From a virus, in IMG/VR virus record IMGVR_UViG_3300019776_000461, positions 20,703 to 84,702 of that record: a stretch of 64,000 bases of DNA; one strand, given 5' to 3'. The translations under genes and the position numbers were made by a program. Below, piece after piece: positions 11,585 to 62,235 of this stretch; position 1 is the first letter of the stretch, and each line of letters begins with the position of its first letter. The notes under the pieces are model-generated. The model ran no database searches, had not been told where the DNA came from, and was given only the letters and a program-made list of their open reading frames with translations.

Positions 11585-11902
11585 ATGAAAAAAGAAGAAC
11601 TTGTAGAAGTAATTACACAGAGAGTGATTGAAAAGCTCAACGAACGAATTTCATTATTGGAATCGAGCGGATTTGATATTATATTCAGTTCTCTTAGAAA
11701 AGAGTTGAATAAAATAGCTATATTACCAGATAATGTAATTGACGCAAGTCAGTATAAAGAACACGAAATAGTCGATGCTTTGAAGAAAATTGGTTATGAG
11801 TATAAAAAACCAATGGGTAATAAACTACATTTTTTTAATAAAAAAACAAGTATAAGTCTTTATCTAATTCAGAAAACTTTGAAAATAACACTTATGCCAT
11901 AA
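11585..11902 (+). CDS. Hypothetical protein
   Basis: 105-aa ORF in tight operon. Confidence 0.7.
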   Translation: MKKEELVEVITQRVIEKLNERISLLESSGFDIIFSSLRKELNKIAILPDNVIDASQYKEHEIVDALKKIGYEYKKPMGNKLHFFNKKTSISLYLIQKTLKITLMP

Positions 11903-11912
11903 GAGACATTAA

Positions 11913-12833
11913 ATGAAAAAAACACAGACTAACAAAGTAAGTATTATTAAAGAAGATGTTTCTTCTGCAAATATAAGCCCCATAAGTTACATGGTGTTTA
12001 TAGATATTTCTAGTTATCTATCAAAAGGGCGTGGTTTATTAAGTTCTATGTTTGCCGCTAAACCAAGTGAATCTATTACAAAATGGTTTGGTAAAGTAAA
12101 AGAAGATGAAACTTATAAGGAAAATGAAGAGGCATTCAAAGCTATTTCTTCAAGATTTATGGGCAATCCTATTTTGAAAAAACTTTATAGTTCAATAGAC
12201 AAACTTAAAACTGTTTCAACAGGGGAAACAGATCAAAGTGAAAGAGATAAAGATATTGAAAAATTATTGGGTAAAATTAGTTTATTTATTAAAAATAGAC
12301 TTACAAAAAAAGAAAGGGAACTTATTGGTAAAATGTCAACCGTAGTTAATTCAATTGGTAATAATATTTCCTCTGCAATAAAATCAGACTTAGAAGCAAT
12401 GGCAAAAGCAGAAGAACCAGAAAAACCAAAAGAAGAACCGAAGGAAGAACCCAAGAAAGAACCAGTAAAACCAATTGAAGCTCCAAAAGTAGAAGGAAAA
12501 GTAAATGAGCGATTGAAAAATAAAATTCAACCTACGAATGAAAACTTTCCAGGTCCAGGAGAAATAGTAGGTGCTAAGGATCTAGATTATGATATGTTGA
12601 GTTATTTTAATAGAATGAATAAAAAATTATCAATAGATACCAAGACCAAGAAAGGAATCTACGGTTCAGTTGCCAAGATGTATGGCAATTTTGTTTTCAA
12701 TGGAGATACCATAGATAAAAAAGATATATTACAAGTAAAGATACTAGAGTCTAATGTAAATGAGCGATTGAAGAACAAACTTCGTAAGAAAATCAAAGAA
12801 ATAATTAGAACACATATTATTAAATTAAAGTAA
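11913..12833 (+). CDS. Hypothetical (possible virion internal) protein with internal duplication
   Basis: 306-aa ORF; EPKEEP linker; VNERLKNK occurs twice. Confidence 0.7.
   Translation: MKKTQTNKVSIIKEDVSSANISPISYMVFIDISSYLSKGRGLLSSMFAAKPSESITKWFGKVKEDETYKENEEAFKAISSRFMGNPILKKLYSSIDKLKTVSTGETDQSERDKDIEKLLGKISLFIKNRLTKKERELIGKMSTVVNSIGNNISSAIKSDLEAMAKAEEPEKPKEEPKEEPKKEPVKPIEAPKVEGKVNERLKNKIQPTNENFPGPGEIVGAKDLDYDMLSYFNRMNKKLSIDTKTKKGIYGSVAKMYGNFVFNGDTIDKKDILQVKILESNVNERLKNKLRKKIKEIIRTHIIKLK
12501..12772 (+). repeat. 17-bp perfect direct repeat GTAAATGAGCGATTGAA (12501-12517, 12756-12772)
   Basis: Read directly; offset 255 nt = 85 codons, in frame. Confidence 0.85.
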
Positions 12834-12849
12834 ATTTGGAGTTTTTAAA

Positions 12850-13542
12850 ATGAAAAAGCAAAAAGACTTGGTAAACGAAGGTAGAAGAATCCAAGAAACT
12901 TTTTTGAAAAAAGTTAATGAGGGGTTTTTTGACAAAATAAAAGATGTATTCAGAGATTCAGAAGATTTTACAGCATTGATAAAGCAGTTTGCACCACTTG
13001 ACAGAGAAAAGGTGTTGAAAAAATCAGATGGTACAGTTGATGTTGCAGATAACTTTTGGGTTGATGGTACTAAAGAATGGATGGACGCTGACAAAAAAGG
13101 TTTAGCACTTGCAGTTAATAAAATTTTAAATAAAGGAATTTTACACATAATGAATATTACAGGACAACCAACTCTTTTCAAATTAGAAAGATGGCCAAAA
13201 ATATGTTCTGAAGTTAAGATTAGTAAATGTGACTTGGTTAGTTTTGAGGGATTTTCAATTCAACTTGAAGGTGGCGGTAAGGTAGAAGTAACTGAATGTG
13301 ATAATTTAAAATCTTTAAAAGGTCTTCCGTCATCACTAAAAGACTTCAGTTTTGGGTATGGTCTTTTCAAAAATTTTGAAGATTTTGGTGATGTTAAGCC
13401 AGCTCGAATAGTAACTTTACCTGGTACAACTAAGATGGCGGTTGAAGCATTAAAAGCAAGTAACAATGATGTTAAGGCAGCAGAAGCGGCGTTAAAGAAA
13501 CAAACAGGTATAACAATCAGTCTTCTTGTTCCTAAACAATAA
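12850..13542 (+). CDS. Hypothetical protein with LRR-like segment and UBA/EF-Ts-N-like C-terminus
   Basis: ECDNLKSLKGLP (LRR-like); AVEALKASNNDVKAAEAALKK (UBA-like). Confidence 0.55.
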   Translation: MKKQKDLVNEGRRIQETFLKKVNEGFFDKIKDVFRDSEDFTALIKQFAPLDREKVLKKSDGTVDVADNFWVDGTKEWMDADKKGLALAVNKILNKGILHIMNITGQPTLFKLERWPKICSEVKISKCDLVSFEGFSIQLEGGGKVEVTECDNLKSLKGLPSSLKDFSFGYGLFKNFEDFGDVKPARIVTLPGTTKMAVEALKASNNDVKAAEAALKKQTGITISLLVPKQ

Positions 13543-13548
13543 CTGTAC

Positions 13549-14178
13549 GTGATAAAGTTAATAGATATATTAAAAGAAATGGGTATCGATAAAGGCGCAT
13601 TTCATGGATTTGGAATGAAGCCAAAAGATATGAGGGTTGATACTTGTAATGTTGAATGGACAAGTCCAGACCAAGATACAGGCTGCCCTGCATTTTCTGA
13701 TTCAACTAAGATAACAGAAGAGGATATTACTAAGGCTATTGAATATCTAAATGAAGAAAAATTGAAAACATTAATAGCATATTCAAGAGGTGGTGCAATA
13801 TTATTACAAGCGTTATCGATGGGAGCTATGAAACCATCTACGGTTTATTTGGTAGCACCTGCTTGGAATAGACAATGGCCAACTGTTTCATTAACAGGTG
13901 GAGAAGTGAATGGTAGTGGAGCTATAATACACGGTGGTAGTGATAATATAGTTCCACTAAAACATTCTGTAATTTTGTCCAAAGCAAGTGGTATGCCGTT
14001 GTATGTGTTCCCTGGAATGAATCATGTTAATATATTAAAAAATAAAGATAATCCAACTTCTGGAATACTATTGAAAAACTTAGAAGATGCCATGGGAGTT
14101 TTACCAGATTGGGGTGAAAGTGGAAAAGCAACGGAGGAAGAGTTAAAAATGCAAGAAGAGTTTGTAAATAATATTTGA
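13549..14178 (+). CDS. Alpha/beta hydrolase
   Basis: AYSRGG nucleophile elbow, HGGSDNIVP (Asp), GMNH (His). Confidence 0.75.
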   Translation: MIKLIDILKEMGIDKGAFHGFGMKPKDMRVDTCNVEWTSPDQDTGCPAFSDSTKITEEDITKAIEYLNEEKLKTLIAYSRGGAILLQALSMGAMKPSTVYLVAPAWNRQWPTVSLTGGEVNGSGAIIHGGSDNIVPLKHSVILSKASGMPLYVFPGMNHVNILKNKDNPTSGILLKNLEDAMGVLPDWGESGKATEEELKMQEEFVNNI

Positions 14179-14186
14179 GAAACAGG

Positions 14187-15086
14187 ATGAGTAAATTAAG
14201 TGTATTATTGGATGAAGTTAGAGATTTCAAAAAAAATGCAATATACAATGCTAAACTTCGTCTTAGAGAAACACTCATTAACGAAGAGGGTGAAGATGAA
14301 GCACAAGATGAAATAAAAGCAATTCTTAAAAAAGATTACTCTACATTTGTTAAAGAGTTGGGTGACAATATAAAAGATGAAAAATTTCTAAATGCTATAA
14401 AATCACTTTCTGATAAACAACCTGTTAAAGTATCAGGAATGTCTCCAGGAGTTACAGATTTACAACCAACACAGAATGAAGTTGTAATGGATAAATCTTT
14501 AAGTTATCCGCTAACAGATGTACCAAGTGCTGAACAATACTTAAAAGGCGGAGTTGTTGCAGTTGCAGGAAAATCAATTATAACATCAGGCGGTGGCAAG
14601 TATGTAATAGATGGACACCACAGATGGTCACAAGTTTTGTGTATTAATCCCGATGCTAAAATTAAAGCGTTAGATTTAACAGACATTAAAAATCCGATTG
14701 ACGCATTAAAAGCAACACAGATTGGAATAGCTGCACAAGCAGGTACAGTTCCAACCGCAGCAGGTGGTGGTGTAAATCTCTTCACAGTTAGTGAAGGTGA
14801 GTTAAAAAAATATGTTCTTGATAAAATAAAAGAGCCAGTTGTTGCTGTATTTGAAAAATATGGTAAAGGTGATACACCAGAAGCAATTGCAGATTATATT
14901 TGGGAAAATGTTCAGGTACTTAAAAAACAATCTCCGCCAGTAGCAGGTGCACCTAAGCGCGATGTGATGCCACAAACAGATGATGCACCACAATGGGTTG
15001 ATAATACTTTCAATGTAGAAAAATTACCTGAAGAATTAACTAATCGCTTCAAAGAACTATTACGATATAACAACAGAGATAAATAA
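14187..15086 (+). CDS. ParB/Srx-like N-terminal domain protein
   Basis: LQPTQ...YVIDGHHRW motif; ATG 14187 has AGG upstream. Confidence 0.7.
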   Translation: MSKLSVLLDEVRDFKKNAIYNAKLRLRETLINEEGEDEAQDEIKAILKKDYSTFVKELGDNIKDEKFLNAIKSLSDKQPVKVSGMSPGVTDLQPTQNEVVMDKSLSYPLTDVPSAEQYLKGGVVAVAGKSIITSGGGKYVIDGHHRWSQVLCINPDAKIKALDLTDIKNPIDALKATQIGIAAQAGTVPTAAGGGVNLFTVSEGELKKYVLDKIKEPVVAVFEKYGKGDTPEAIADYIWENVQVLKKQSPPVAGAPKRDVMPQTDDAPQWVDNTFNVEKLPEELTNRFKELLRYNNRDK

Positions 15087-15092
15087 AAATAC

Positions 15093-15120
15093 TGGGGACA
15101 AACGTCCCCATATTTATTTT
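15093..15120 (+). terminator. Rho-independent terminator
   Basis: TGGGGAC-AAAC-GTCCCCA followed by TATTTATTTT. Confidence 0.75.
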
Positions 15121-15128
15121 ATATAAAA

Positions 15129-15160
15129 TTTGAATATTAAACATTAAAACATTATATTTG
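15129..15160 (+). promoter_or_regulatory. Bacteroidota/FCB-type promoter (TTTG-N20-TATATTTG) for the replication operon
   Basis: Matches the -33 TTTG / -7 TAnnTTTG consensus. Confidence 0.75.
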
Positions 15161-16008: not shown

Positions 16009-17154
16009 ATGGCAAAATCAAAGAGTGATTTATCCGATGAACTCGGTGGAGTCATTGCAGAAACAATAAATAAAAAGTTCAAAGAACAAAACTACAAGAC
16101 TGCTTATTTTCTTGAGGGTGATAGTGACGCACCTACAATTGTAAAAGAGTGGGTTGGAACTGGTTCAACAATTCTTGATTTGGCAATTTCAAATCGTAAG
16201 AATGGTGGATTTCCAGTCGGTAGAGTGTGTGAAATAACAGGACTTGAGCAATCAGGTAAATCATTGTTAGCAGCACATGCATTACTAAACACTCAAAGAA
16301 AAGGCGGACTTGCTGTTTACATAGATACAGAAAATGCTATCTCTACTGAATATCTAACCGCAATTGGTTTGAACCTTAAAGATATGCTCTACATTCCATT
16401 GGAAACCGTAGAGGATGTGTTTGAAGCAGTTGAGGTTATTATTGAGAAGGTTCGTTCTTCCGATAAAAATAAATTGGTTACGATAGTTATTGATTCTATT
16501 GCAGGTGCATCTACTAAAACAGAGATGGCTGCAGATTTTGATAAAGATGGTTATGCTACGGCAAAGGCACTTATCATTTCAAAAGCAATGAGAAAAATAA
16601 CAAATTTAATCGGTAGAGAACGCATTTGTCTTATTATCACAAATCAACTTCGTCAAAAACTAAATGCTCCTGCATTCTCTGACCCATGGACAACACCAGG
16701 TGGTAAAGGCATTCCTTTCCATGCTTCTGTTCGTCTTCGTCTTTCATCAGTCGGTGCTATTAAAGCTAAGATTGAAGGACACGATGAAGTAGTGGGTTCG
16801 AGAGTAAAAGCAAAATTAGTAAAGAACAGAGTTGGTCCACCATTACGAGAATGTGAATATGAGATTTATTTTGATTCGGGTATTGACGATTATAGCAGTT
16901 GGCTTACTACGATGAAGGATTATAATCTTGTTGCACAAGCAGGTGCTTGGTATTCATGGACAAACAAAGAAACGGGTGAAGTTATTAAATTTCAATCGAA
17001 AGACTTTGTTGAAAAAATCATGAACGTTCCAAAATTAAAGGAAATGGTTTATGATGAAATTGCCGAGAAGGTAATTATGAAATACCAACAACTCGATGCT
17101 GCTCGTATTGATGAAGTAGTTATTTCAAATCAATCAATTGATGATGAAATATAA
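16009..17154 (+). CDS. recA: RecA/UvsX recombinase
   Basis: GLEQSGKS Walker A, YIDTE, VIDSIA, NQLRQK, TPGGKGIPFHASVRL, KNRVGPP. Confidence 0.95.
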   Translation: MAKSKSDLSDELGGVIAETINKKFKEQNYKTAYFLEGDSDAPTIVKEWVGTGSTILDLAISNRKNGGFPVGRVCEITGLEQSGKSLLAAHALLNTQRKGGLAVYIDTENAISTEYLTAIGLNLKDMLYIPLETVEDVFEAVEVIIEKVRSSDKNKLVTIVIDSIAGASTKTEMAADFDKDGYATAKALIISKAMRKITNLIGRERICLIITNQLRQKLNAPAFSDPWTTPGGKGIPFHASVRLRLSSVGAIKAKIEGHDEVVGSRVKAKLVKNRVGPPLRECEYEIYFDSGIDDYSSWLTTMKDYNLVAQAGAWYSWTNKETGEVIKFQSKDFVEKIMNVPKLKEMVYDEIAEKVIMKYQQLDAARIDEVVISNQSIDDEI

Positions 17155-18197
17155 TGAACAAGTATCAGAAACTACTTCAAGAAATTGAAACCGAGAAAGA
17201 ACTACAAGATAGTTTACACCGTGATAGTAAGGTTTTGATCGTAGATGGAATGAACTTATTTATAAGAACATTCTCAGCTATTCCTACTCTTAACGAGGAT
17301 GGGCAACACATTGGCGGTCTCTCTGGTTTTCTCCAATCATTGGCTGCAACAGTCCGCATGGTTAATCCCACGCGGGTTGTTGTAGTGTTTGATGGGAAGG
17401 GTGGTTCACAAAGAAGAAAGAAAATATATTCAAATTACAAGGAAGGCAGGGCAATCAAATCTAAATTGAATAGGGTTGCGGGTTTTGAGAATCTTGAGGA
17501 TGAACAAAAGTCTATGAGGTTTCAGCTGTTTCGTCTGTTTTCATATTTACAGAATTTGCCATTAACCATTATATCGATGGATAATATTGAGGCGGATGAT
17601 GTGATTGCTTACCTTTCCTTTTATTTCAAAGAAAAATCTATTATATTATCGAACGATAGAGATTTTTTACAGTTGGTATCGGAACAAGTTTCTGTTTATT
17701 TACCAACGAAAAAAAAGTTATATACACCAGAAAATCTGTTAGAAGAAACTGGAGTATGGTGTGAGAATTTTATTTTATTCAAAGCATTATTAGGTGATAA
17801 AAGCGATAACATTAAAGGTATTAATGGACTCGGTGAAAAAACAATATTGAAACATTTTCCAATGCTTTCAGAAAAAAGAAAAATTGATTTAGATATGTTC
17901 GTAGAATTTTGTAAATTGTATGATAATAAATCTAAAGCAATCAATGAACTCAAGAATAATATTAGTATATTAGAAACTAACTATGAGATTATGCAATTAC
18001 ATGATGTTGATATTTCACAAAGTTTCAAATCATCTATACGTGGCATGGTTGATGGAGAAATCCAAGTACTAAATAAAATTGAGTTAGATAAATTATTTAT
18101 AGCAGATAAATTATACGCTGCTATACCTAATTTTGAATATTGGTTACAAAGAAATTTTGGAAATCTAAATACGATTCGGAATATATATGCAGGATAA
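17154..18197 (+). CDS. 5'-3' exonuclease / T4 RNase H-like (FEN family)
   Basis: IVDGMN, VFDG, YKEGR, EADDVI, SNDRDFLQL, GDKSDNIKGINGLGEKT. Confidence 0.92.
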   Translation: MNKYQKLLQEIETEKELQDSLHRDSKVLIVDGMNLFIRTFSAIPTLNEDGQHIGGLSGFLQSLAATVRMVNPTRVVVVFDGKGGSQRRKKIYSNYKEGRAIKSKLNRVAGFENLEDEQKSMRFQLFRLFSYLQNLPLTIISMDNIEADDVIAYLSFYFKEKSIILSNDRDFLQLVSEQVSVYLPTKKKLYTPENLLEETGVWCENFILFKALLGDKSDNIKGINGLGEKTILKHFPMLSEKRKIDLDMFVEFCKLYDNKSKAINELKNNISILETNYEIMQLHDVDISQSFKSSIRGMVDGEIQVLNKIELDKLFIADKLYAAIPNFEYWLQRNFGNLNTIRNIYAG

Positions 18198-20304: not shown

Positions 20305-22158
20305 ATGGATATTAGTAATCGAATTCTTTCTGAAATAACTGTGTATATGAAATACGCTCGTTATTTACCAGAATTGAATAGAAGAGAAACTTGGAATGAG
20401 TTAGTAACAAGAAACAAAGAAATGCACCAACGTAAGTACCCACAGTTAGTAGACGAAATTGAAAACGTCTATAAGTTCGTTTACGATAAAAAGGTACTTC
20501 CATCAATGCGTTCACTTCAGTTTGGTGGTAAACCAATTGAAATTTCACCTAATCGTATTTACAATTGTGCTTATTTGCCTATTGATGATTGGCGTGCATT
20601 CGGTGAAGTAATGTTTCTTTTACTCGGTGGAACTGGCGTAGGTTACTCAGTTCAAAAGCACCACGTAGAACAACTTCCACCTATCCATAAACCAAAATCC
20701 AAAGAACGTCGTTATCTTATTGGAGATTCAATTGAAGGTTGGGCAGATGCAGTTAAAGCACTTGTTAAGTCTTATTTCACAGGTGGTTCATCGATTCACT
20801 TTGATTATTCAGATATTCGTCAGAAAGGTTCTCGTTTAATTACAAGTGGTGGTAAAGCTCCTGGTCCAGAACCGCTTCGTATTTGTATTGAGAAAATTCG
20901 TGCTATTCTTGACTTGAAAGGCGATGGTGAACAACTTTCACCGATTGAAGTACATGATATTGTTTGTCATGTTGCAGACGCAGTTCTTGCAGGTGGTATT
21001 CGTCGTGCTGCTCTCATTTCTCTTTTCTCTGCTGATGATGACGATATGATTTCATGTAAGTTTGGAAATTGGTGGGAATTGAATCCGCAACGTGGTAGAG
21101 CAAATAATTCAGCAGTTCTTCTTCGTAGTAAAGTATCTGAAGAATTTTTCAAATCACTTTGGAAGAAAATAGAATTATCTAATGCAGGTGAACCTGGTAT
21201 TTATCTTTCAAACGATAAAGATTGGGGAACAAACCCATGTTGTGAAATTGCACTTCGTCCATTTCAATTTTGTAACTTATGTGAAGTAAATGTATCAGAT
21301 GTTGTTGACCAAGAAGATTTAGAAGCAAGAGTTCGTGCTGCTACATTCATTGGTACACTTCAAGCTGGTTATACAGACTTCCATTATCTTCGCCCTATTT
21401 GGCAAAGAACTACCGAGAAAGACGCATTACTTGGAGTTGGTATGACAGGTATTGGTTCTGGTAAAGTAATGAAAATGGATTTAAAAGCAGCAACTAAAGT
21501 ATCAAGAGAAGAAAATGAAAGAGTTGCTTCCATACTTGGTATTAACAAATCTGCTCGTACAACTACAATTAAACCAGCAGGTACATCATCTTTAACTCTT
21601 GGGTGTTCATCTGGTATTCATGCATGGCACAATGATTTTTATTTACGTAGAGTTCGTGTTGGAAAGAATGAATCAATTTATTCTTATCTTGCAATCAATC
21701 ACCCAGAGTTGGTTGAAGATGAATACTTCCGTCCACACGATACTGCGGTAATTGGTGTTCCACAAAAAGCCCCCGAACACTCAATACTTCGTAGTGAATC
21801 ACCATTACAATTATTAGAAAGAGTAAAATGGTTTAACCAAAATTGGATTAAGCCAGGTCATCGCACTGGTATGAACACTCATAATATTTCTGCAACAGTT
21901 TCTATTCGTGAACATGAATGGGATGCGGTAGGTAATTGGATGTGGGAAAACAAAGAACACTTCAACGGTTTATCAGTATTACCATATGATGGTGGAACAT
22001 ATATTCAAGCTCCTTTTGAAGATATTACAAAAGAAGAGTACGAAAGATTATTAGAAACTTTACATGATGTTGATTTATCAAAGATTGTAGAAATGGATGA
22101 TAATACTGATTTGTCTGGCGAACTTGCTTGTGCAGGTGGTGCGTGTGAAATTAAATAG
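20305..22158 (+). CDS. nrdJ: Class II (adenosylcobalamin-dependent) ribonucleotide reductase
   Basis: NCAY, GGIRRAALI, NPCCEI, FCNL, KPAGTSS and C-terminal ACAGGACE; no beta subunit nearby; start after GGAG. Confidence 0.88.
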   Translation: MDISNRILSEITVYMKYARYLPELNRRETWNELVTRNKEMHQRKYPQLVDEIENVYKFVYDKKVLPSMRSLQFGGKPIEISPNRIYNCAYLPIDDWRAFGEVMFLLLGGTGVGYSVQKHHVEQLPPIHKPKSKERRYLIGDSIEGWADAVKALVKSYFTGGSSIHFDYSDIRQKGSRLITSGGKAPGPEPLRICIEKIRAILDLKGDGEQLSPIEVHDIVCHVADAVLAGGIRRAALISLFSADDDDMISCKFGNWWELNPQRGRANNSAVLLRSKVSEEFFKSLWKKIELSNAGEPGIYLSNDKDWGTNPCCEIALRPFQFCNLCEVNVSDVVDQEDLEARVRAATFIGTLQAGYTDFHYLRPIWQRTTEKDALLGVGMTGIGSGKVMKMDLKAATKVSREENERVASILGINKSARTTTIKPAGTSSLTLGCSSGIHAWHNDFYLRRVRVGKNESIYSYLAINHPELVEDEYFRPHDTAVIGVPQKAPEHSILRSESPLQLLERVKWFNQNWIKPGHRTGMNTHNISATVSIREHEWDAVGNWMWENKEHFNGLSVLPYDGGTYIQAPFEDITKEEYERLLETLHDVDLSKIVEMDDNTDLSGELACAGGACEIK

Positions 22159-22164
22159 TTAAAG

Positions 22165-22512
22165 GTGTTATAGTTCTTTGGAATAATGAAGGAGTATAGT
22201 TATGGATATTACATCATTTTTTATGGGTATATGTGCAGTTACAGTTTTAACAGCAGTTGCAGTTGTAGTTGTGGGTATGTTCAGAATAAACAAAACAAAC
22301 AAAGAACTAAATGATTTAGTTAGAAACCAAGATACGATGGATAGAATTATTGTTGATAATGAAAGAGAAATCAGAAGAACAATAGATTCCAGAATTGACA
22401 GTTTCGGTTCAAAGATTGAAAAAGAAATAAAATTCTTACATGAAAGAATTGATGGATTGAATAAAGTAAAATAAATAATAATTTTTAAAATGAATCCATA
22501 GAACTATAACAC
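22165..22512. repeat. 18-bp inverted repeat (17/18) flanking ORF 22202-22474
   Basis: GTGTTATAGTTCTTTGGA (22165-22182) vs TCCATAGAACTATAACAC (22495-22512). Confidence 0.8.
22202..22474 (+). CDS. Small membrane-anchored coiled-coil protein
   Basis: N-terminal hydrophobic helix then charged heptads; AAGGAG RBS. Confidence 0.7.
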   Translation: MDITSFFMGICAVTVLTAVAVVVVGMFRINKTNKELNDLVRNQDTMDRIIVDNEREIRRTIDSRIDSFGSKIEKEIKFLHERIDGLNKVK

Positions 22513-23193: not shown

Positions 23194-23221
23194 GGGGTGG
23201 TGGAAACATCACCCTTTTTTA
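23194..23221 (+). terminator. Rho-independent terminator
   Basis: GGGTGGTG-GAAA-CATCACCC followed by a T run. Confidence 0.85.
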
Positions 23222-23287
23222 TTTATTCCATATTTATATTTACAATAGTATTTTTCACATCAAGGCAAATATAAATGGGATGGCGTA

Positions 23288-23496: not shown

Positions 23497-23850
23497 ATGA
23501 ACATATCATCAAGAAAACAACTGTTAGCAGAAGCAGGTGATGTATTAAAACAGATTCGTGAAGAAGTTGAAGGCATCGATAAAAAAGTAGAAACTGCTGT
23601 TAAAAAAATGACTAAGTGCTGTGAAGAAGACAAAGATTTAGTATCTGGCTTAGTTGAACTTGCAAAATTAGTTGGTGATAAAAAATACCAAAAAGTATTA
23701 GAAGCTATAAAAGATATTGAAAAAGCAGAAGAAGGTAGACACTATTTCATAGATCAATACATAGCAGAGATTCAAAAGATCTTATTATCTACTGCAAAAG
23801 AACAATTTAGCTCACAAGAGTTCGGTGTAATATATTCTGCAATCGGTTAA
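23497..23850 (+). CDS. Hypothetical protein
   Basis: 117-aa ORF with AGGAG RBS. Confidence 0.7.
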   Translation: MNISSRKQLLAEAGDVLKQIREEVEGIDKKVETAVKKMTKCCEEDKDLVSGLVELAKLVGDKKYQKVLEAIKDIEKAEEGRHYFIDQYIAEIQKILLSTAKEQFSSQEFGVIYSAIG

Positions 23851-30527: not shown

Positions 30528-30533
30528 CTTATA

Positions 30534-30541
30534 TATTTATA
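30534..30541 (+). promoter_or_regulatory. Putative late promoter TATTTATA
   Basis: Intergenic, 33 nt before ATG 30575. Confidence 0.55.
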
Positions 30542-30574: not shown

Positions 30575-31204
30575 ATGTCAAAATTAACTAATATATTAAA
30601 AGAAAGTGGTTTATCGAGATTGGTTTACCACATGGAAATGCACGATTGCGGTACAATTACAGCCTTCCGTTCTAAAGAAGGCTGTGGTTTACCTGAAGAT
30701 TTACCGTACGCTCTACAAGATAACAAAAAAAGAAATGCTCAATTAAAAGCAAAACTTGAAATGATGGGGTACGGAACAACCGCAGTTAAAGGTGCTTATA
30801 TTGAAAACTACGGAACACCTGAAGCAATTGAAGTACGTGAAGATGTTTTCTTTGTTGTGGATTTACAAGACAAAGGAAACCTTGAAGCAGATTTAAGAAG
30901 ATTAGGTGAAGAGTATATGCAAGATTCTATTTTGTTTATACCAAGAGGTGGTAGAGGTTCTGTTCTCATCGGTACAAACCATTGTTCAGATTATCCAGGA
31001 TATGGCAGAACAATGCAATTCAATGATAGACAAATGGGCAAAGGTGGTCAGTTCATGACAAAAGTAAATGGTAGACCTTTTATATTTGAATCTAATTTAC
31101 TTGAACAAGTTGGAAACCATAACTATTATAGTGTTGCAAACAACATGGGTAAGTGGGCAATGAAAACTATTGCAAATAAAGATTGGAAAGATATTGAAAT
31201 TTAA
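30575..31204 (+). CDS. Putative S-adenosylmethionine lyase (T3 SAMase-like)
   Basis: ITAFRS...NKKRNAQL...GAYIE...RED...LGEEYMQDSILF matches in order the T3 SAMase VSAFRS...NMSRH...GCYRE...EEK...NEWEQDCVLV as recalled. Confidence 0.6.
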   Translation: MSKLTNILKESGLSRLVYHMEMHDCGTITAFRSKEGCGLPEDLPYALQDNKKRNAQLKAKLEMMGYGTTAVKGAYIENYGTPEAIEVREDVFFVVDLQDKGNLEADLRRLGEEYMQDSILFIPRGGRGSVLIGTNHCSDYPGYGRTMQFNDRQMGKGGQFMTKVNGRPFIFESNLLEQVGNHNYYSVANNMGKWAMKTIANKDWKDIEI

Positions 31205-31516: not shown

Positions 31517-31816
31517 ATGGACGTTTTATTAGTAGAACCAAAAACAAATAAGTTTACCGCTTATTTATACGATGGCACAACAGCAGCAGCGAATGAAGCA
31601 TGCTCAAAGTGGCCATGCATTATGACTGCAAGTAACAGTTATAAGGATAAGTGGGTTTTGAAGTTTGAAGCATCGAAAGAAGAGTGCTTACCTGGCCAAT
31701 ATATTGTTAACGAAAGTAAGGGGTATTCCATTTATACTCAAGCGGAATTCTTAGAAAAGTATGATGTAGTTTACGATAACCGAAACAAAATCGGTAATTT
31801 TTTATCCGAAGATTAA
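31517..31816 (+). CDS. Hypothetical protein
   Basis: 99-aa ORF in operon. Confidence 0.65.
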   Translation: MDVLLVEPKTNKFTAYLYDGTTAAANEACSKWPCIMTASNSYKDKWVLKFEASKEECLPGQYIVNESKGYSIYTQAEFLEKYDVVYDNRNKIGNFLSED

Positions 31817-41101: not shown

Positions 41102-42258
41102 TGAGTATATATATTTGGACTTCGGAATATGTAAGTGAAGGTCATCCTGATAAAATAGCTGACCAAATTTCAGATGCAGTTCTTGATTGGTACTTACAAA
41201 GAGACCCAGATGCAAAGGTTGCGTGTGAGGTTATGGTAAAGGATAGTGATATTTATGTTTCTGGTGAAATAAAATCAACGGTTGATAAAGATAAAAGAAC
41301 TTTAGAATTATCACTAACTCGATTAATTAGAGGACTTATAAAAGATATTGGATACACAAAAGAAGAATCCCCTTTCTTTAATTCAGACTATTGCCGTATT
41401 CATTTCAATATATCAACTCAATCATCAGAGATTAATCAAGCAGTTGATAAAGGAGATGTTGTTACAGCAGGAGACCAAGGTATTATGTTTGGTTATGCAA
41501 CTCGTGAAACTCCAACGTATATGCCGGTAGCAATTTACTTAGCTAAAAAACTAATTGAAGTTGCAACGGATATTAGAAAGAAAGGTAGTAAACTTGGACA
41601 TGTACAAAAACTTCGTCCTGATATGAAGAGTCAGGTGTCTGTTGCGTATAGTGGTAATGAAGCAGTTGGTATTCATTCTGTTGTATTTTCAACTTGTCAT
41701 TCTGAGTTGATTTCACTTGAAGAACTTAGAAAGTATTTCCACTCTGATATTTTACCAAAGGTATTAGAAAGTATTCCAGAAGAACTTGCTAAACTGTTTA
41801 CAGATAAAACTGTTTACCATATAAATCCTGCTGGTGAATGGAACATAGGTGGTCCAGTTTCTGATTGTGGATTAACTGGTAGAAAGATTGTGGTTGACCA
41901 ATATGGTGCTGATTGTGAAATTGGTGGCGGTGCTTTCTCAGGCAAAGACCCAAGTAAAGTTGATAGAAGTGCAGCATATATGGCTCGTCATATTGCCTTA
42001 AAAACACTTCATGAAAATGAAGAAGCAAATAAAATTAAAGTTCAATTAGCATATGTAATCGGTGAAGAGTTTCCTGTTTCATATCGTATATTTGACCCAA
42101 CAACTGGAAAAGAATATGGACTTGGTAAATTTAGTTTCAATGATTTAACCCCAAATAAAATCATTGAAAGATTAAAATTAAAAACTCCTATTTATTTACA
42201 GACTGCTAAGTACGGTCATTTTGGAAATAAAGATTTAGAATGGGAGAAAATTGGATGA
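41101..42258 (+). CDS. metK: S-adenosylmethionine synthetase
   Basis: TSEYVSEGHPDKIADQISD, AGDQGIMFGYA, RPDMKSQV, DCGLTGRKIVVD, GGGAFSGKDPSKVDRSAAY, YGHFG. Confidence 0.97.
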   Translation: MSIYIWTSEYVSEGHPDKIADQISDAVLDWYLQRDPDAKVACEVMVKDSDIYVSGEIKSTVDKDKRTLELSLTRLIRGLIKDIGYTKEESPFFNSDYCRIHFNISTQSSEINQAVDKGDVVTAGDQGIMFGYATRETPTYMPVAIYLAKKLIEVATDIRKKGSKLGHVQKLRPDMKSQVSVAYSGNEAVGIHSVVFSTCHSELISLEELRKYFHSDILPKVLESIPEELAKLFTDKTVYHINPAGEWNIGGPVSDCGLTGRKIVVDQYGADCEIGGGAFSGKDPSKVDRSAAYMARHIALKTLHENEEANKIKVQLAYVIGEEFPVSYRIFDPTTGKEYGLGKFSFNDLTPNKIIERLKLKTPIYLQTAKYGHFGNKDLEWEKIG

Positions 42259-42746
42259 AACTAAAAGACTTGATAATGGAAGCGTTTACTCTTAACGGTA
42301 GAGTTATGTTATATCACTTTTCAAAAGAAGATTTAGGAAATGTAGCGATTCTCGATCCAGCATTATCAAGTCAACGTCCATCCTCTTGGTCACGTAACGA
42401 TTATAAACTATCTAAAGTACCAAGAGTATTTTACTATACAGACTTAAATAAAATTGAGCGTATGGTTAAAAGTCATAATTTATATGCAGCAGAATATGAT
42501 GGTACTAGAATATTAAATGTACCGCAGGTATTGAAGGAGTATCAAACAAATCCAGATTCACTTGCTATCAAAAATCCAAACGCTTTCAAGATAATGCAAT
42601 CGTCCGTAAACCAATATGGTGCAATAGATTATGATGCAATGTTAAGAGCAGCAGGACAATTCTTTGATGGTGTATTCTACGATACTGGTAACTTACCAAT
42701 TGTCAATTTATTTGTACCATTAAGAGCAAAAAAACAAAATGTCTGA
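42255..42746 (+). CDS. Hypothetical protein, possible ADP-ribosyltransferase-like fold
   Basis: LYHFS...VFYYTD...FDGVFY strand pattern; N-terminal MKLKDLIME. Confidence 0.4.
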   Translation: MKLKDLIMEAFTLNGRVMLYHFSKEDLGNVAILDPALSSQRPSSWSRNDYKLSKVPRVFYYTDLNKIERMVKSHNLYAAEYDGTRILNVPQVLKEYQTNPDSLAIKNPNAFKIMQSSVNQYGAIDYDAMLRAAGQFFDGVFYDTGNLPIVNLFVPLRAKKQNV

Positions 42747-55449: not shown

Positions 55450-55457
55450 TATTTATA
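55450..55457 (+). promoter_or_regulatory. Putative late promoter TATTTATA
   Basis: Intergenic, directly after the GT island. Confidence 0.55.
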
Positions 55458-55490
55458 GTTATATGTTCTAAAAAAATATGGGAGAGATTG

Positions 55491-55847
55491 ATGCATCAAA
55501 TAGCAGCGCAATTAGTTCAAGTTGAAGTACAACTTCGTTTTTTTCATTGGCAAACTAAGTCATATGCACGCCATCAAGCGTACGGTGGTACTTATGACGC
55601 AATTAATGATTTAATTGATACATTTGTAGAAGTATTGATGGGTAAATATGGACGTGTTCCTGCAATGCCTATGAAGATTTATAATAGCAATGAGAAAGAT
55701 ATAAATTCTTTTATAGAAGAAACTATTGCGTTTTTGATTGGATTTTCTACTATGTTAGATCCAAAAGCAGATACAGACTTATTGAATATAAGAGACGAAA
55801 TGTTAGCAGAGTTTAATAAACTCAAATATTTAATTACATTAAAATAA
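55491..55847 (+). CDS. Ferritin/Dps-like four-helix protein (DUF5856-like)
   Basis: FHWQTKSYARHQA...YD...LIDTFVE..MGKYGR...DLLNIRDEML...KLKYLITL. Confidence 0.7.
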   Translation: MHQIAAQLVQVEVQLRFFHWQTKSYARHQAYGGTYDAINDLIDTFVEVLMGKYGRVPAMPMKIYNSNEKDINSFIEETIAFLIGFSTMLDPKADTDLLNIRDEMLAEFNKLKYLITLK

Positions 55848-58506: not shown

Positions 58507-58518
58507 ACAGAGGTTGTT

Positions 58519-58851: not shown

Positions 58852-58879
58852 ACAATATTAATTAAAAGGAGATAATAAA

Positions 58880-59170: not shown

Positions 59171-59201
59171 TATCTCAATAACCATGTGTTAATAGAGTTA
59201 C

Positions 59202-59248
59202 GAGATCGCTAGATATTATGTCTGGCGATTTCTGTTTATTTTAATTTT
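59202..59248 (+). terminator. Probable terminator hairpin
   Basis: GAGATCGCTAGATA / TGTCTGGCGATTTC 14-bp stem with G-U pairs, then a T-rich tract. Confidence 0.55.
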
Positions 59249-59253
59249 GATTA

Positions 59254-59261
59254 TATTTATA
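59254..59261 (+). promoter_or_regulatory. Putative late promoter TATTTATA
   Basis: Between the terminator and ATG 59296. Confidence 0.55.
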
Positions 59262-59295
59262 GGTATGTTCCTCGTTTACATTGGAGATATTTTAC

Positions 59296-60522
59296 ATGAA
59301 TAGGTACAAAGTATTATTAGAAAATGAAAGAAAGATATTAACTTCTGTTAACAGATTAATACATGAAGGTAGAAAATTAACCGATGATGAAAGGGCTGAA
59401 AGAGAAGCTGAAAAAGCAGCTAAAAAAGCAGCTAGATTAACTGCAGCAGAATCGGAAAATGTTATAGTTGATATGTGGAATACTGCTGCTAAAGGTAAAG
59501 ATATACCACAGAAATATGCAGATAGAGGACTTGAACCATTGTTCAATTCTGTAAAACCGTATGCTAAAAGTCCGGCTACTGTATATGGAAAAAAGAAATT
59601 AGCAACTTCTGAATTATGGAAAGATGTAACTGGTAAGAAGAATGATACATCGAAAACGGATGTTATCGGGGATAAAAACTATTCGGTTAAGTATGGACCA
59701 GCACAACTAATGTCAGGAGCTCCAAAAGAAGCAATAGCAACTTTACTAGCAGCATCAGAGAAGTCAGGACTTTCTGATAAAGCTCAGCAAAAAGCGCATG
59801 ATTTATTAGATGAGTTGAAAAGTTATTCGATAAGAACTATTGGTGAAACAATGAATCTCTCAGCTATTAGAACACTTGGGGATAAAGAATCGATTACCAA
59901 TGAATTAAATAAAAAGGCATACGGCTTTATTACAAAGGGAGAGGAACTACAAAAAAAACTAACAAGCGAAATGCAAAGTATGTTTGATAGTAGTCCAGAA
60001 TTTCAATTGGAATTTATATATGAAGCAATGACAGGCGCATCGAAATTCACAGATGCAAGCGCAATAGCAGATACCATGTTATGTATTGACAAAAATGCTC
60101 AGTATATAAAAATAGAATCTGTTGCTGACTCAAAAGCTCCGTATGTAAAAAAAGTTATGGGTGCTACAAGTATAAAAGCAAGTTATAAAGGATCTACATA
60201 TACATTGAAAACTGGTGTTAAAGGATATACATTTAACACTGCTTTGAGATTAATCACTAAAGATTTAACTATTGCAAAAAATGAATGTATAGCAGCGATT
60301 AATTCATATAATGGTAATATACTTAATGAAAACTTTTTCGATTTTGTTAAGAAAACATGGAACAAATTGAAAGGTGTTTTTGAAAAGATAAAACAATTTA
60401 TAGTAAAAGCTATTGAGTATATTAAATCTGGATTTAAAAAATTACTTGAATTCTTTTCAATAGATTTTAACGTGGAAGGTTGGCAAAAATTAGACACTAT
60501 TGATTTATATGATGTAGCATAA
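59296..60522 (+). CDS. Hypothetical protein, possible PD-(D/E)XK-fold nuclease
   Basis: AAESE...TSKTDV...YSVK motif; amphipathic C-terminal helix. Confidence 0.5.
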   Translation: MNRYKVLLENERKILTSVNRLIHEGRKLTDDERAEREAEKAAKKAARLTAAESENVIVDMWNTAAKGKDIPQKYADRGLEPLFNSVKPYAKSPATVYGKKKLATSELWKDVTGKKNDTSKTDVIGDKNYSVKYGPAQLMSGAPKEAIATLLAASEKSGLSDKAQQKAHDLLDELKSYSIRTIGETMNLSAIRTLGDKESITNELNKKAYGFITKGEELQKKLTSEMQSMFDSSPEFQLEFIYEAMTGASKFTDASAIADTMLCIDKNAQYIKIESVADSKAPYVKKVMGATSIKASYKGSTYTLKTGVKGYTFNTALRLITKDLTIAKNECIAAINSYNGNILNENFFDFVKKTWNKLKGVFEKIKQFIVKAIEYIKSGFKKLLEFFSIDFNVEGWQKLDTIDLYDVA

Positions 60523-60524
60523 TT

Positions 60525-60806
60525 ATGTTAGATTCGTTTTGGGCAAGTTTAGAAATAGATGATGTGTCTGATTTGAAATATACGGACTATGTTCAGTATA
60601 AAACTTCAGAGCAAAAACAGGAAGTGTTGGAAAAAATAGATTGGGTAATACTTAAATTACACAAGATTAAAGATATTAGAAAGTATGACTTTGATATTGT
60701 TAGTAGGATGAAAGATAAAATTAAATATGGTGATAGTTCTCTTACAATGAAAGGTATTGAATATTTGAATTTAATAACGGCAGATTTGAAACAAGATACA
60801 TTTTAA
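60525..60806 (+). CDS. Hypothetical protein
   Basis: 93-aa ORF in operon. Confidence 0.6.
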   Translation: MLDSFWASLEIDDVSDLKYTDYVQYKTSEQKQEVLEKIDWVILKLHKIKDIRKYDFDIVSRMKDKIKYGDSSLTMKGIEYLNLITADLKQDTF

Positions 60807-60816
60807 GGAAAATAAA

Positions 60817-62235
60817 ATGATAAGACTGAAAGACATATTGAATGGTAAAAAACCAATACTAAAAGAGAGTGGAATAAGAAACATTAACGCATTAACCGCA
60901 ACGAGAAAAGAGGCTGTTATATATTTCCACATGGACTTAGATGGTGTAACAACTGCAATCGGTATGAAAGCATATTTAGAAAGATATGGTGTTAAGTTAG
61001 TTGAATGCCACAAAATTCAATATGGTGGTATGGAATACGCAGTTCAAAAGCCACGTCCTGGTCTTTTAGTTGTTATCGTTGACTTTGCTCACGGTAAACC
61101 TATGGTGCATATTCACACAGATCACCATCAATCACAAGCAGGTGTTGCTCCAACTACATCGGGTGCATTCAAACACGCACCTTCAAATGTTGCAGCGATG
61201 TCTCAAGAAATTTCACCAACTGATTTATTCCCTGCACAAGATATTCAAATTATATCAACAGTTGATTCCGCTGACTTTGCTTCTCAAGGTATTAATCCAG
61301 AACAAGTAATGCGTTCTGTATTTGAGTTTGACCCAACTATGTCTGCCGTACCTAATAGACTTGCAATGGGATTGGTAGTAAACAAAGTTCTTCTTGCTTT
61401 CAAGAATAAACCTGGCTTCTTAGAAGCATTGGTAATGAAAGCACGTCCTTCATTAGTTTCTATCTACAATGTAATCAAACAAGAAGTAAAAGCTCGTGGT
61501 TTATCATGGGAAGATTTACCTGCTAAAACAGCAGCATACCTTGCTTCACAAGCACCTGATATAAAGATGAAACAAATAACAAATCCACGAGAAATACAAA
61601 CACTCGGTAATGGTGAATACGCAATGTTTGGAACTTGCTTAGTTCAATACGGTGGTGGTACAATGACTAAAGGTGGATACGATAGATACACGCCATTCAA
61701 GATGAACCCAACTGCTGAGTACCTTGTAATTGGTTGGCCAATGGGATTGGTACAAGCAGCGAAGAATCCATTCAAGAAAGGTGCAAACCCAATTAACTTA
61801 GGTGAATTGGCAATGGGTATATTGAATAAGCACAAATCAGAACTTCAAGCAATAAGACTTACAATGGGTGATGTTAAGAGAATGATGGAAATGGATATTG
61901 CTAAAAAAGGAAGTACAGAATCCGTTGGTTTCACTATGGATGACTTCATGGCTTTATTCGGTGAGGTTGCTGTAAATTTACCTAAGAGTCCAGGATTTGG
62001 AAATGTAGTAAAAGATATAGCTGGAAAACAATATAGATTCCTTTCACCAAAACAAAAGGCAATACTCGATAGTGTAACTACTACTGCTTACGATGTTATT
62101 GTAAAAGGTTCAGGTGGGCATCACGATATTACAAATATATCTGGCTTGAATTTTTTAGGTGGAGGCTATACAACATTCCTCAAACAATTGATGGGTGAAT
62201 TAGCAGAAGCATTGGCAGGTGCAAGATTACAATAA
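60817..62235 (+). CDS. DHH-family phosphoesterase-like protein
   Basis: FHMDLDG, VDF, TDHH, DSAD, C-terminal GGHH (DHHA1-like). Confidence 0.7.
   Translation: MIRLKDILNGKKPILKESGIRNINALTATRKEAVIYFHMDLDGVTTAIGMKAYLERYGVKLVECHKIQYGGMEYAVQKPRPGLLVVIVDFAHGKPMVHIHTDHHQSQAGVAPTTSGAFKHAPSNVAAMSQEISPTDLFPAQDIQIISTVDSADFASQGINPEQVMRSVFEFDPTMSAVPNRLAMGLVVNKVLLAFKNKPGFLEALVMKARPSLVSIYNVIKQEVKARGLSWEDLPAKTAAYLASQAPDIKMKQITNPREIQTLGNGEYAMFGTCLVQYGGGTMTKGGYDRYTPFKMNPTAEYLVIGWPMGLVQAAKNPFKKGANPINLGELAMGILNKHKSELQAIRLTMGDVKRMMEMDIAKKGSTESVGFTMDDFMALFGEVAVNLPKSPGFGNVVKDIAGKQYRFLSPKQKAILDSVTTTAYDVIVKGSGGHHDITNISGLNFLGGGYTTFLKQLMGELAEALAGARLQ

What the first reader, a model, noticed from the sequence alone, without database searches (positions are those of the whole stretch)
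11585..62235. Unrelated proteins share an N-terminal MxKLxx(I/L)LxE peptide: a likely capsid-targeting/cleavage signal for injected cargo
Seen: MIKLIDILKE (hydrolase 13549), MSKLSVLLDE (ParB-like 14187), MSKLTNILKE (SAMase-like 30575), MKLKDLIME (42255), MIRLKDILNGKKPILKE (DHH 60817). Looser matches: MNRYKVLLE (59296), RKQLLAE (23497), QKDLVNE (12850), VSIIKE (11913). Most lie downstream of a TATTTATA motif, and most replication and GT genes lack the peptide. Known: T4 internal proteins carry a ~10-aa capsid targeting sequence ending in Glu that the prohead protease cleaves at (L/I)xE. Inference: a modular address label that loads diverse enzymes into the head for injection. Caveats: the exonuclease at 17154 starts MNKYQKLLQE, 42255 has no late motif of its own, and K/L/E are common in this proteome.
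Basis: partly seen in the sequence, partly recalled or inferred. Interest (0 to 1): 0.8.

Follow-up and report, generated by a model that had tools for sequence, protein, structure and literature searches.

The report
T4-style capsid-cargo leader peptides
An uncultured, distantly T4-like phage puts a short N-terminal tag ending in (Leu/Ile)-x-Glu on about ten unrelated late-expressed proteins. It is most likely the same "load into the head, then clip" signal that T4 uses for its injected internal proteins, but neither cutting nor packaging has been shown.

Summary
In my 91-protein gene set, [LI][LI]-x-E occurs in the first 20 residues of 13 proteins against 1.7 expected. It is the most enriched of 732 gapped patterns (p 1e-9). 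The enrichment recurs in a complete 177 kb relative, including among genes with no homologue in this contig. T4 shows it too; Staphylococcus phage K does not.

The phage has a T4 gp23-type capsid protein. Four relatives encode the gp21-family (Peptidase_S77) prohead protease; this contig is truncated and lacks that region.

In orthologues the h-x-E boundary is kept while the rest of the leader changes in sequence and length. Examples are ...E|SGLSR on a SAM-lyase-like protein and ...E|SGIRN on a DHH phosphoesterase. Most carriers sit in terminator-bounded cassettes behind ATATTTATA, the motif that also precedes tail and baseplate genes.

The best reading (about 0.7) is T4-type capsid-targeting propeptides on packaged, probably injected enzymes.
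- Core set: 11585, 11913, 12850, 13549, 14187, 30575, 60817.
- Probable: 59296, 23497, 31517.
- Doubtful: 42255 and the exonuclease at 17154.
- Rejected: ribonucleotide reductase at 20305 and the PhoH-like protein.

This is a new member of a known kind. Other agents in this scan reached the same reading on related and other T4-like phage DNA.

The parts
11543..11551 (+). Late-type promoter ATATTTATA heading the cassette 11585-15086
   Evidence: PWM score 15.6, 41 nt upstream of the start. The same motif precedes sheath, tube, baseplate and giant virion genes.
11585..11902 (+). 105-aa protein. Leader of about 26 aa, MKKEELVEVITQRVIEKLNERISLLE|SSGFD (core set).
   Evidence: The boundary h-x-E|[SG][SGT]GF[DE] is kept in 12 diverged orthologues. 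First gene of the late cassette.
11913..12833 (+). 306-aa protein of unknown function. Basic leader MKKTQTNKVSIIKE|D (core set).
   Evidence: [LIV]-x-E is present in all 12 distinct orthologue N-termini, while leader length varies from 7 to 14 aa.
12850..13542 (+). 230-aa protein of unknown function. Leader MKKQKDLVNE|G (core set).
   Evidence: Lies in the late cassette. In relatives L091 and L104 it is fused in frame behind the 11913-like gene, so the site is internal there.
13549..14178 (+). 209-aa protein, weakly alpha/beta-hydrolase-like. GTG start, leader (M)IKLIDILKE|M (core set).
   Evidence: Start confirmed by ATG in orthologues with MIKLSDILKE|I and MIKIRDILTE|I. Abhydrolase_1 E 4.6e-4, below the Pfam cut-off.
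14187..15086 (+). 299-aa protein with an invariant DGHHRW motif, probably a ParB/sulfiredoxin-type domain. Leader MSKLSVLLDE|V (core set).
   Evidence: L-x-x-[LI]-[LIV]-x-E is kept in orthologues whose N-termini differ in length. Paralogue of the gene next to the capsid gene (E 1e-7). Top Foldseek hits are all ParB/Srx but weak, E 0.1-1.
15093..15110 (+). Intrinsic terminator closing the late cassette
17154..18197 (+). 5'-3' exonuclease/FEN beginning MNKYQKLLQE|I. Ambiguous member.
   Evidence: The h-h-x-E is kept down to 44% identity in a variable extension of about 25 aa, and it resembles T4 IPIII MKTYQEFIAE. Against: no late promoter, and T4 RNase H also starts MDLEMMLDE.
20305..22158 (+). 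Class II ribonucleotide reductase beginning MDISNRILSE. Rejected as a member.
   Evidence: The Pfam RNR_Alpha match starts at residue 8. Orthologues have ILSD as well as ILSE. No late promoter.
23194..23238 (+). Terminator (23194-23215) directly followed by late promoter (TATTTATA at 23231-23238)
23497..23850 (+). 117-aa coiled-coil protein. Leader MNISSRKQLLAE|A (probable member).
   Evidence: Second gene behind the late promoter. LLxE is kept in closer orthologues but reads KLMKD in three distant ones.
30533..30541 (+). Late promoter ATATTTATA, 41 nt upstream of 30575
   Evidence: PWM score 18.3.
30575..31204 (+). SAM-lyase-like protein (209 aa). Leader MSKLTNILKE|SGLSR (core set).
   Evidence: PF23780 E 2.5e-10, domain from residue 47. 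Orthologue leaders MAKLKDLLPKKSMNE|, MRFKDYINE|, MVSTFSEYLQE| and, in Mel-JY01, MQFKQYILGE| all end at the same boundary.
31517..31816 (+). 99-aa protein beginning MDVLLVE|P (probable member)
   Evidence: h-h-x-E is kept in orthologues at 36-42% identity (MDFVMVE, MNFMMVE). Same late unit as 30575.
42255..42746 (+). 163-aa protein beginning MKLKDLIME|A. Doubtful member.
   Evidence: The leader is of the consensus type, but there is no late promoter, the gene overlaps the end of metK, and only orthologues above 90% identity were found.
59202..59261 (+). Terminator (59202-59232) followed by late promoter (TATTTATA at 59254-59261)
59296..60522 (+). 408-aa protein of unknown function beginning MNRYKVLLE|N (probable member)
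   Evidence: First gene of the late cassette. The motif is kept in 3 orthologues, the most distant at 46% identity.
60817..62235 (+). DHH/DHHA1 phosphoesterase (472 aa). Leader of 17 aa, MIRLKDILNGKKPILKE|SGIRN (core set).
   Evidence: 35 Foldseek hits at E<=1e-3, all DHH enzymes, with the DHH motif invariant. Residues 1-21 have pLDDT below 50. Orthologue leaders of 7-19 aa all end h-h-x-E|[STG]GIRN.
62253..62277 (.). Bidirectional terminator closing the 59254 late cassette

Best explanation
The window is half of a genome of about 177 kb belonging to a distantly T4-like myovirus.

Proposed mechanism:
1. About ten unrelated proteins are transcribed from late promoters (ATATTTATA) while proheads assemble.
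2. Each carries an N-terminal leader of one of two types. One is M-x-K-L-x-x-[IL]-L-x-E, 9-10 aa and sometimes extended. The other is a basic MKK... stretch ending h-x-E.
3. As with T4's capsid targeting sequence, the leader is proposed to bind the scaffolding core, so the protein is built into the prohead.
4. The gp21-family (S77) prohead protease then cuts after the Glu of (L/I/V)-x-E and frees the mature enzyme inside the capsid.
5. The enzyme leaves with the DNA at the next infection.

The cargo would include a SAM-lyase-like enzyme, a DHH phosphoesterase, a ParB/Srx-like protein and a weakly hydrolase-like protein. In relatives it also includes ART-like and Zeta-kinase-like proteins.

Shown: the motif, its enrichment, its conservation, the late-promoter context, and the homologous head machinery in relatives. 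Inferred: binding to the core, cleavage, packaging, injection, and what the enzymes do in the host.
For: Machinery:
- gp23-family capsid protein, sheath, gp19-like tube and T4 baseplate.
- T4 portal and Peptidase_S77 in L005.
- S77 in 4 of 4 large related contigs, including the complete 177 kb G002, which carries the cargo orthologues.

Motif:
- Top of 732 patterns in this contig and top in G002. Second in T4. Absent in phage K.
- Holds among G002 genes with no homologue in this contig.

Same layout as T4 leaders read from the T4 genome: IPII/III MKTYQEFIAE|A, gp24 MAKINELLRE|S, gp22 MLKEQLIAE|A, gp21 MNEPQLLIE|T. In IPIII, residues 4 and 7 matter for targeting and residues 8 and 10 for processing (PMC9026906). 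The leaders here have L4, I/L7, L8 and E10.

Conservation:
- The h-x-E boundary is kept while leader sequence and length change. Apart from the candidates, only 2 of about 36 genes with diverged orthologue N-termini show such a column.
- The leaders use different synonymous codons, so selection acts on the peptide.
- The capsid propeptide has an invariant Q-L-[IV]-x-E|[SA] site.

Context:
- Terminator-bounded late cassettes. Fisher p 0.007.
- A SAM lyase is useful early in infection, so a late promoter makes sense mainly if the enzyme is packaged for the next cell, as with T4 Alt.
- In both models the leader lies outside the confident fold.
- The cargo domain types (ParB/Srx next to the capsid gene, ART, kinase) match those described for proteins injected with DNA (PMC5512222).
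Against: - There are no proteomic, N-terminal or expression data for this phage or any relative.
- The protease gene is not on this contig, which CheckV rates 48% complete.
- In T4 the bare motif also occurs on DNA ligase, Dam and others not known to be packaged, so individual assignments can be wrong.
- The closest isolate, Mel-JY01, shows only weak enrichment: 2.4-fold in 12 residues, not significant in 20, and not among its top patterns.
- The promoter association is moderate. It is not significant for the looser h-h-x-E pattern (p 0.10) and marginal by distance in G002 (p 0.06).
- The residue after the Glu varies (S, G, A, V, I, M, D, N, K).
- 23497 has Asp in place of Glu in distant orthologues.
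- 42255 and the exonuclease have no late promoter.
Confidence: 0.7

Rival explanations
1. The leaders are a generic N-terminal amphipathic helix, or a translation-friendly AT-rich gene start, common in AT-rich phage proteomes and with no role in the capsid.
For: K, L and E are slightly enriched at N-termini. T4 proteins not known to be packaged also carry the motif. RNR and the exonuclease carry it as part of conserved family N-termini.
Against: - AT-rich phage K shows no enrichment.
- Composition-preserving shuffles never reach the observed count.
- Codon usage within the leaders varies.
- Glu and the hydrophobic residue two positions before it are exactly what is conserved while everything else drifts.
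- Carriers cluster behind late promoters.
Confidence: 0.12
2. The tag is a shared recognition peptide for some other late process, without head packaging. Examples: keeping toxic enzymes inactive or unstable in the producing cell (a cleavable pro-sequence or degron), membrane or nucleoid localisation, or recognition by another modifying enzyme.
For: Many carriers are potentially harmful enzymes: a SAM lyase and a nuclease-like protein here, and ART-like and Zeta-kinase-like proteins in relatives. A note from this scan on another phage (e1-127136) found a shared leader that served a radical-SAM enzyme and not the capsid.
Against: - The motif matches the known specificity of the homologous protease family.
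- It also sits on scaffold-like, core and capsid proteins of relatives: MNDLLKE|...KKLKE|S, and QL[IV]xE|S in the capsid protein.
- No other candidate partner enzyme is linked to the cassettes.
Confidence: 0.1
3. The tagged proteins are head-internal core or scaffold-like components that are cleaved and largely expelled or degraded during maturation, as T4 gp22, gp67 and gp68 are. They would not be injected as functional enzymes.
For: Several carriers are small or coiled-coil proteins without enzyme domains (11585, 23497, and genome 2843/4147 next to the capsid gene).
Against: Others are clearly enzymes with intact catalytic motifs: a DHH protein with an invariant DHH motif and a SAM-lyase-like domain. 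They have a single N-terminal site, not many internal ones.
Confidence: 0.08

Closest known systems
Phage T4 capsid targeting sequence (CTS) of internal proteins IPI, IPII, IPIII and Alt, processed by prohead protease gp21 (Mullaney & Black 1996, as reviewed in PMC9026906 and PMC3012670)
   Same: - Homologous head machinery: gp23-type capsid protein, gp20-type portal and S77 protease in relatives.
- N-terminal leader of 10-19 aa with hydrophobic residues at positions 4, 7 and 8 and Glu at about 10.
- Carried by unrelated, rapidly changing proteins scattered outside the head module.
- Late expression.
   Different: - The leader consensus differs: M-x-K-L-x-x-[IL]-L-x-E here, against MKTYQEFIAE in T4.
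- The cargo is a broader set of recognisable enzymes (SAM-lyase-like, DHH, ParB/Srx-like; ART-like and Zeta-like in relatives), where T4 has small basic IPs plus Alt.
- The late promoter motif is ATATTTATA, not TATAAATA.
- Nothing has been shown experimentally.
Ejection/inner-body proteins of giant phages phiKZ, 201phi2-1 and SPN3US, processed by a gp21-related protease (PMC5694885)
   Same: Many head-packaged, ejected proteins have propeptides removed after a Glu by a related prohead protease.
   Different: Those proteases cut at (S/A/G)-x-E or A-x-E, and the propeptides are often longer than 100 aa. Here the site is (L/I/V)-x-E with short, T4-length leaders.
Polyvalent proteins of phages and conjugative elements (Iyer et al. 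2017, PMC5512222); P1 DdrB
   Same: - Overlapping domain repertoire thought to be delivered with the DNA: ParB/Srx-like, ART, kinases.
- The ParB-like gene sits next to virion structural genes.
   Different: The domains here are separate genes, each with its own leader, and are not fused in one giant polypeptide. One relative-specific fusion is the exception (11913-like with 12850-like).
T3 gp0.3 / Svi3-3 SAM lyase (Pfam PF23780)
   Same: The protein at 30575 matches the family above the Pfam cut-off.
   Different: T3 SAMase is an early gene without a leader (from my own knowledge). This one has a late promoter, a 10-aa leader and an N-terminal extension of about 35 aa.

Membership tests
T4-type capsid targeting sequence / gp21-processed propeptide | The phage builds a T4-type head (gp23-family major capsid protein) | tested here: met
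   PF07068 Gp23 E 7e-66. 27% identity to T4 gp23 over the full length, E 6e-33.
T4-type capsid targeting sequence / gp21-processed propeptide | A gp21-family (Peptidase_S77) prohead protease is encoded by the same phage | tested here: inconclusive
   Absent from this contig, which starts inside the capsid gene and is rated 48% complete. Present just upstream of the capsid gene in L005 (E 4e-32) and in all 4 large relatives, including complete G002, which carries the cargo orthologues at 89-95% identity.
T4-type capsid targeting sequence / gp21-processed propeptide | N-terminal leader of about 10-19 residues ending in (L/I)-x-E | tested here: met
   Leaders of 7-26 aa, most of 9-17 aa. The boundary is conserved in orthologues.
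T4-type capsid targeting sequence / gp21-processed propeptide | Targeting determinants at leader residues 4 and 7, processing determinants at residues 8 and 10 (IPIII mutagenesis, PMC9026906) | tested here: met
   The consensus leaders have L4, I/L7, L8 and E10 (MSKLTNILKE, MSKLSVLLDE, MIKLIDILKE), compared with the T4 leaders. This is resemblance of pattern only; function is untested.
T4-type capsid targeting sequence / gp21-processed propeptide | Carried by otherwise unrelated proteins | tested here: met
   All-against-all BLASTP without the first 25 residues: only 2 paralogous pairs among 18 proteins.
T4-type capsid targeting sequence / gp21-processed propeptide | Synthesised late, together with prohead components | tested here: inconclusive
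   The carriers share the ATATTTATA motif with structural genes and lie in terminator-bounded cassettes. There are no expression data, and a late sigma factor (gp55 homologue) was not sought.
T4-type capsid targeting sequence / gp21-processed propeptide | Cleaved after the Glu by the prohead protease | not testable with these tools
   Needs N-terminal or semi-tryptic mass spectrometry, or a cleavage assay.
T4-type capsid targeting sequence / gp21-processed propeptide | Present in mature virions and delivered to the host | not testable with these tools
   No virion proteome exists for this clade.
Polyvalent proteins (PMC5512222) | Two or more disparate effector domains fused in one polypeptide | tested here: not met
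   The cargo candidates are single-domain proteins encoded by separate genes. Only the domain repertoire overlaps.
DHH/DHHA1 phosphoesterases (for 60817) | DHH fold with a conserved DHH motif | tested here: met
   35 PDB hits at E<=1e-3, all DHH enzymes. H100, D102, H103 and H104 are invariant. The Pfam DHH match alone is below the cut-off.
ParB/sulfiredoxin superfamily (for 14187) | ParB/Srx fold with a conserved active-site Arg | tested here: inconclusive
   Invariant DGHHRW. Top Foldseek hits are all ParB/Srx but at E 0.1-1, on a model with mean pLDDT 61. No Pfam or PDB sequence match. The atlas gives leads at 0.79-0.87 only.

The most novel reading that the evidence does not exclude
This freshwater clade of distant T4 relatives uses one interchangeable 10-residue address label to turn almost any enzyme into an injected first-strike effector. 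That would give a sequence-readable 'injectome' of 10-20 proteins per phage: SAM lyase, DHH phosphodiesterase, ParB/Srx nuclease, ADP-ribosyltransferases, Zeta-type kinase, HAD phosphatase. It would include the first packaged SAM lyase and a packaged nucleotide phosphodiesterase that could pre-empt signalling-based defences.
Probability: 0.45. Interest if true: 0.6.

Novelty: new member of a known kind. Interest (0 to 1): 0.45.

Why it matters
If the leaders work as in T4, the proteins a phage delivers with its DNA could be predicted from sequence alone for a large uncultured clade. The capsid protein search found at least 597 related stretches in IMG/VR. It would show that T4's capsid-targeting principle reaches lineages with only about 28% capsid protein identity to T4. 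It would also point to new classes of pre-made counter-defence enzymes: SAM depletion, nucleotide phosphodiesterase, ParB-like nuclease, ADP-ribosylation. The leader could serve as a packaging tag in these phages, as the T4 CTS already does in T4.

Tried and rejected
- **PhoH-like protein (genome 6657, VLLNE at 18):** the motif is absent from several close orthologues. Dropped.
- **RNR at 20305:** the motif lies inside the conserved RNR_Alpha domain, and orthologues read ILSD as well. Dropped.
- **Recent DNA copying of leaders:** rejected, because codons differ.
- **Nucleotide-level similarity to known phages:** only a methylase fragment matched.
- **'ParB-like' by sequence:** no Pfam or PDB sequence hit. 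Only weak but consistent fold hits.
- **Looser h-h-x-E pattern against late units:** not significant (p 0.10).
- **Distance to late promoter in G002:** marginal (p 0.06).
- **Mel-JY01:** enrichment weak.
- **Pfam on 42255, 59296, 11913, 12850:** nothing credible.
- **Literature on Mel-JY01, the immuto phages, or processing in distant T4-like phages:** no proteomics found.
- **Not attempted:** search for a gp55-type late sigma factor; RNA or read-level evidence.

Full report
**What the DNA is.** The window is bases 20703-84702 of an 84.7 kb viral contig. G+C is 33% and nearly all genes lie on the + strand.
- The contig starts inside a gp23-family major capsid gene. A contractile sheath, a gp19-like tube and a T4-type baseplate protein follow.
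- The closest isolates by capsid protein are Microcystis phage Mel-JY01 (73%), the Flavobacterium 'immuto' phages (54.5%), Rhodothermus RM378 (38.6%) and T4 (about 28%).
- IMG/VR holds many relatives.
- In L005 (91% capsid identity) the genes upstream of the capsid gene are large terminase, T4-type portal, small ORFs, a Peptidase_S77 (gp21-family) prohead protease (E 4e-32) and scaffold-like proteins.
- S77 is present in all four large related contigs tested. These include G002, a 177 kb record rated 100% complete, which carries orthologues of the exonuclease, SAM-lyase-like, DHH and 42255 genes at 89-95% identity. Our contig is rated 48% complete and lacks that region.

**The observation.**
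- I built a gene set blind to the motif. [LI][LI]xE occurs in the first 20 residues of 13 of 91 proteins. Internal windows predict 1.7 (p 2e-8). Shuffling each N-terminus predicts 3.3 +/- 1.7, and 0 of 5000 shuffles reach 13.
- Enumerating all 732 reduced-alphabet patterns of the form a-b-x-c puts [LI][LI]xE first by five orders of magnitude (p 1.1e-9). It is also first in G002 (p 7.5e-9) and second in T4. It is not among the top eight in Staphylococcus phage K or in Mel-JY01.
- With the same caller, enrichment in the first 12 residues is about 7-fold here, 4.4-fold in T4, 2.4-fold in Mel-JY01 and 1.3-fold (not significant) in phage K.
- The pattern was defined on this window, so I tested it on the 117 G002 genes that have no homologue here. 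The count is 9 against 2.2 expected (p 4e-4).

**Calibration with T4.**
- T4 carriers include the known gp21 substrates Alt, gp24, gp22, gp21 and gp68. They also include DNA ligase, Dam and others not known to be packaged. The bare motif is therefore enriched but not sufficient.
- The T4 leaders read from the T4 genome have the same layout as the leaders here: MKTYQEFIAE|A, MAKINELLRE|S, MLKEQLIAE|A, MNEPQLLIE|T, MELITE|L, MEGLIE|A.
- The literature describes 10-19-residue propeptides. In IPIII, residues 4 and 7 matter for targeting and residues 8 and 10 for processing (PMC9026906; PMC5694885).

**Orthologues.**
- The part of the leader that is conserved is the h-x-E boundary. The rest changes in sequence and length.
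  - SAM-lyase-like: MSKLTNILKE|, MAKLKDLLPKKSMNE|, MRFKDYINE|, MVSTFSEYLQE|, all before SGLSR.
  - DHH: leaders of 7 to 19 aa, all ending h-h-x-E|[STG]GIRN.
  - 14187: MSKLSVLLDE|, MLSLKNILSE|, MSNKLPLLKSILNE|.
  - 11913: a basic stretch followed by [LIV]-x-E in all 12 distinct orthologue N-termini.
  - 13549: the GTG start is confirmed by ATG in relatives.
  - 11585: ...h-x-E|[SG][SGT]GF[DE].
  - The genes after the capsid gene: L-K-x-L-h-N-E|, LFE|DDE and h-N-E|.
- Apart from the candidates, only 2 of about 36 genes with diverged orthologue N-termini show a conserved h-x-E column.
- The capsid propeptide itself has an invariant Q-L-[IV]-x-E|[SA] site upstream of the mature core.
- The leaders use different synonymous codons. 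Beyond residue 25 only two pairs of carriers are related.

**Late context.**
- ATATTTATA has 12 strong sites, all on the + strand and all intergenic, about 40 nt upstream of starts. They precede sheath, tube, baseplate and giant virion genes. In G002 they also precede the portal and scaffold genes, with 28 sites on + against 3 on -.
- Inside the replication region the motif heads terminator-bounded cassettes:
  - 11544 -> five tagged genes -> terminator at 15093.
  - Terminator at 23194, then 23231 -> 23288 and 23497.
  - 30534 -> SAM-lyase-like gene and the genes that follow.
  - Terminator at 59202, then 59254 -> 59296, 60525 and the DHH gene -> terminator at 62253.
- [LI][LI]xE against membership of a late unit gives Fisher p 0.007, even with a lenient unit definition. 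The looser h-h-x-E pattern is not significant.

**What the carriers are.**

| Gene | Annotation | Basis |
|---|---|---|
| 30575 | SAM-lyase family, above the Pfam cut-off | |
| 60817 | DHH/DHHA1 fold, invariant DHH motif, leader disordered in the model | |
| 14187 | Invariant DGHHRW; weak but consistent ParB/Srx fold hits; paralogue next to the capsid gene | |
| 13549 | Weakly hydrolase-like | |

- In G002 the same leader heads four consecutive genes behind a late promoter. Two are ART-PolyVal-like (below the Pfam cut-off) and one is HAD-like. A Zeta-toxin-like kinase elsewhere in G002 carries it too.
- These domain types are the ones described for proteins injected with phage or plasmid DNA (PMC5512222).

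**Verdict.**
- Core set: 11585, 11913, 12850, 13549, 14187, 30575, 60817, plus genome 1746, 2843, 4147 and 5441 outside the window.
- Probable: 59296, 23497, 31517.
- Doubtful: 42255 and the exonuclease at 17154.
- Rejected: RNR at 20305 and the PhoH-like protein.

Cleavage, packaging and injection remain untested. The principle is known from T4, so this is a new member of a known kind with an unusually broad, enzyme-rich predicted cargo. Other agents in this scan reached the same reading on related and other T4-like phage DNA. Those notes agree with this report but are not independent evidence.

Noticed in passing
window 62773-62799(-), 63058-63084(-), 63526-63552(+), 63920-63946(+): Four copies of TATTTGTATGTAAGATTAAGAACAACC (0 expected by chance). 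Each lies just upstream of a small ORF, and they are arranged divergently after the bidirectional terminator at 62253-62277. This looks like a repeated early promoter plus 5' leader. It contains a TAnnTTTG-like box, which from memory resembles Bacteroidota -7 elements.
   Followed up: partly
L091:4410-5753 and L104:6584-7909 (relatives), against window 11913-13542: In two relatives the 11913-like and 12850-like genes are one fused ORF of 442-448 aa. The KDLVNE|G site is then internal, like a protease-cuttable joint in a small polyprotein.
   Followed up: partly
window 30575-31204 and 41101-42258: The phage encodes both a SAM-lyase-like protein (late promoter, leader) and a SAM synthetase MetK, alongside several methyltransferases. 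SAM destruction and SAM supply may be separated in time.
   Followed up: no
L005:7215-7448; Mel-JY01 22183-22410 (L210): A ribosomal protein S21 homologue sits inside the head-assembly module of relatives, between the prohead protease and the scaffold genes.
   Followed up: no
G002 (L231:6011-8767, L230:9412-10200): A late cassette of four consecutive genes with MIKLxxLLKE-type leaders. Two are ART-PolyVal-like (below the Pfam cut-off) and one is HAD/DUF2608-like. A Zeta-toxin-like kinase elsewhere in G002 has the leader MIKLKKIIEGILKE.
   Followed up: partly
window 55450-55847: A strong late promoter drives a DUF5856 protein (118 aa) that has no leader. Not every late non-structural gene is tagged.
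   Followed up: no
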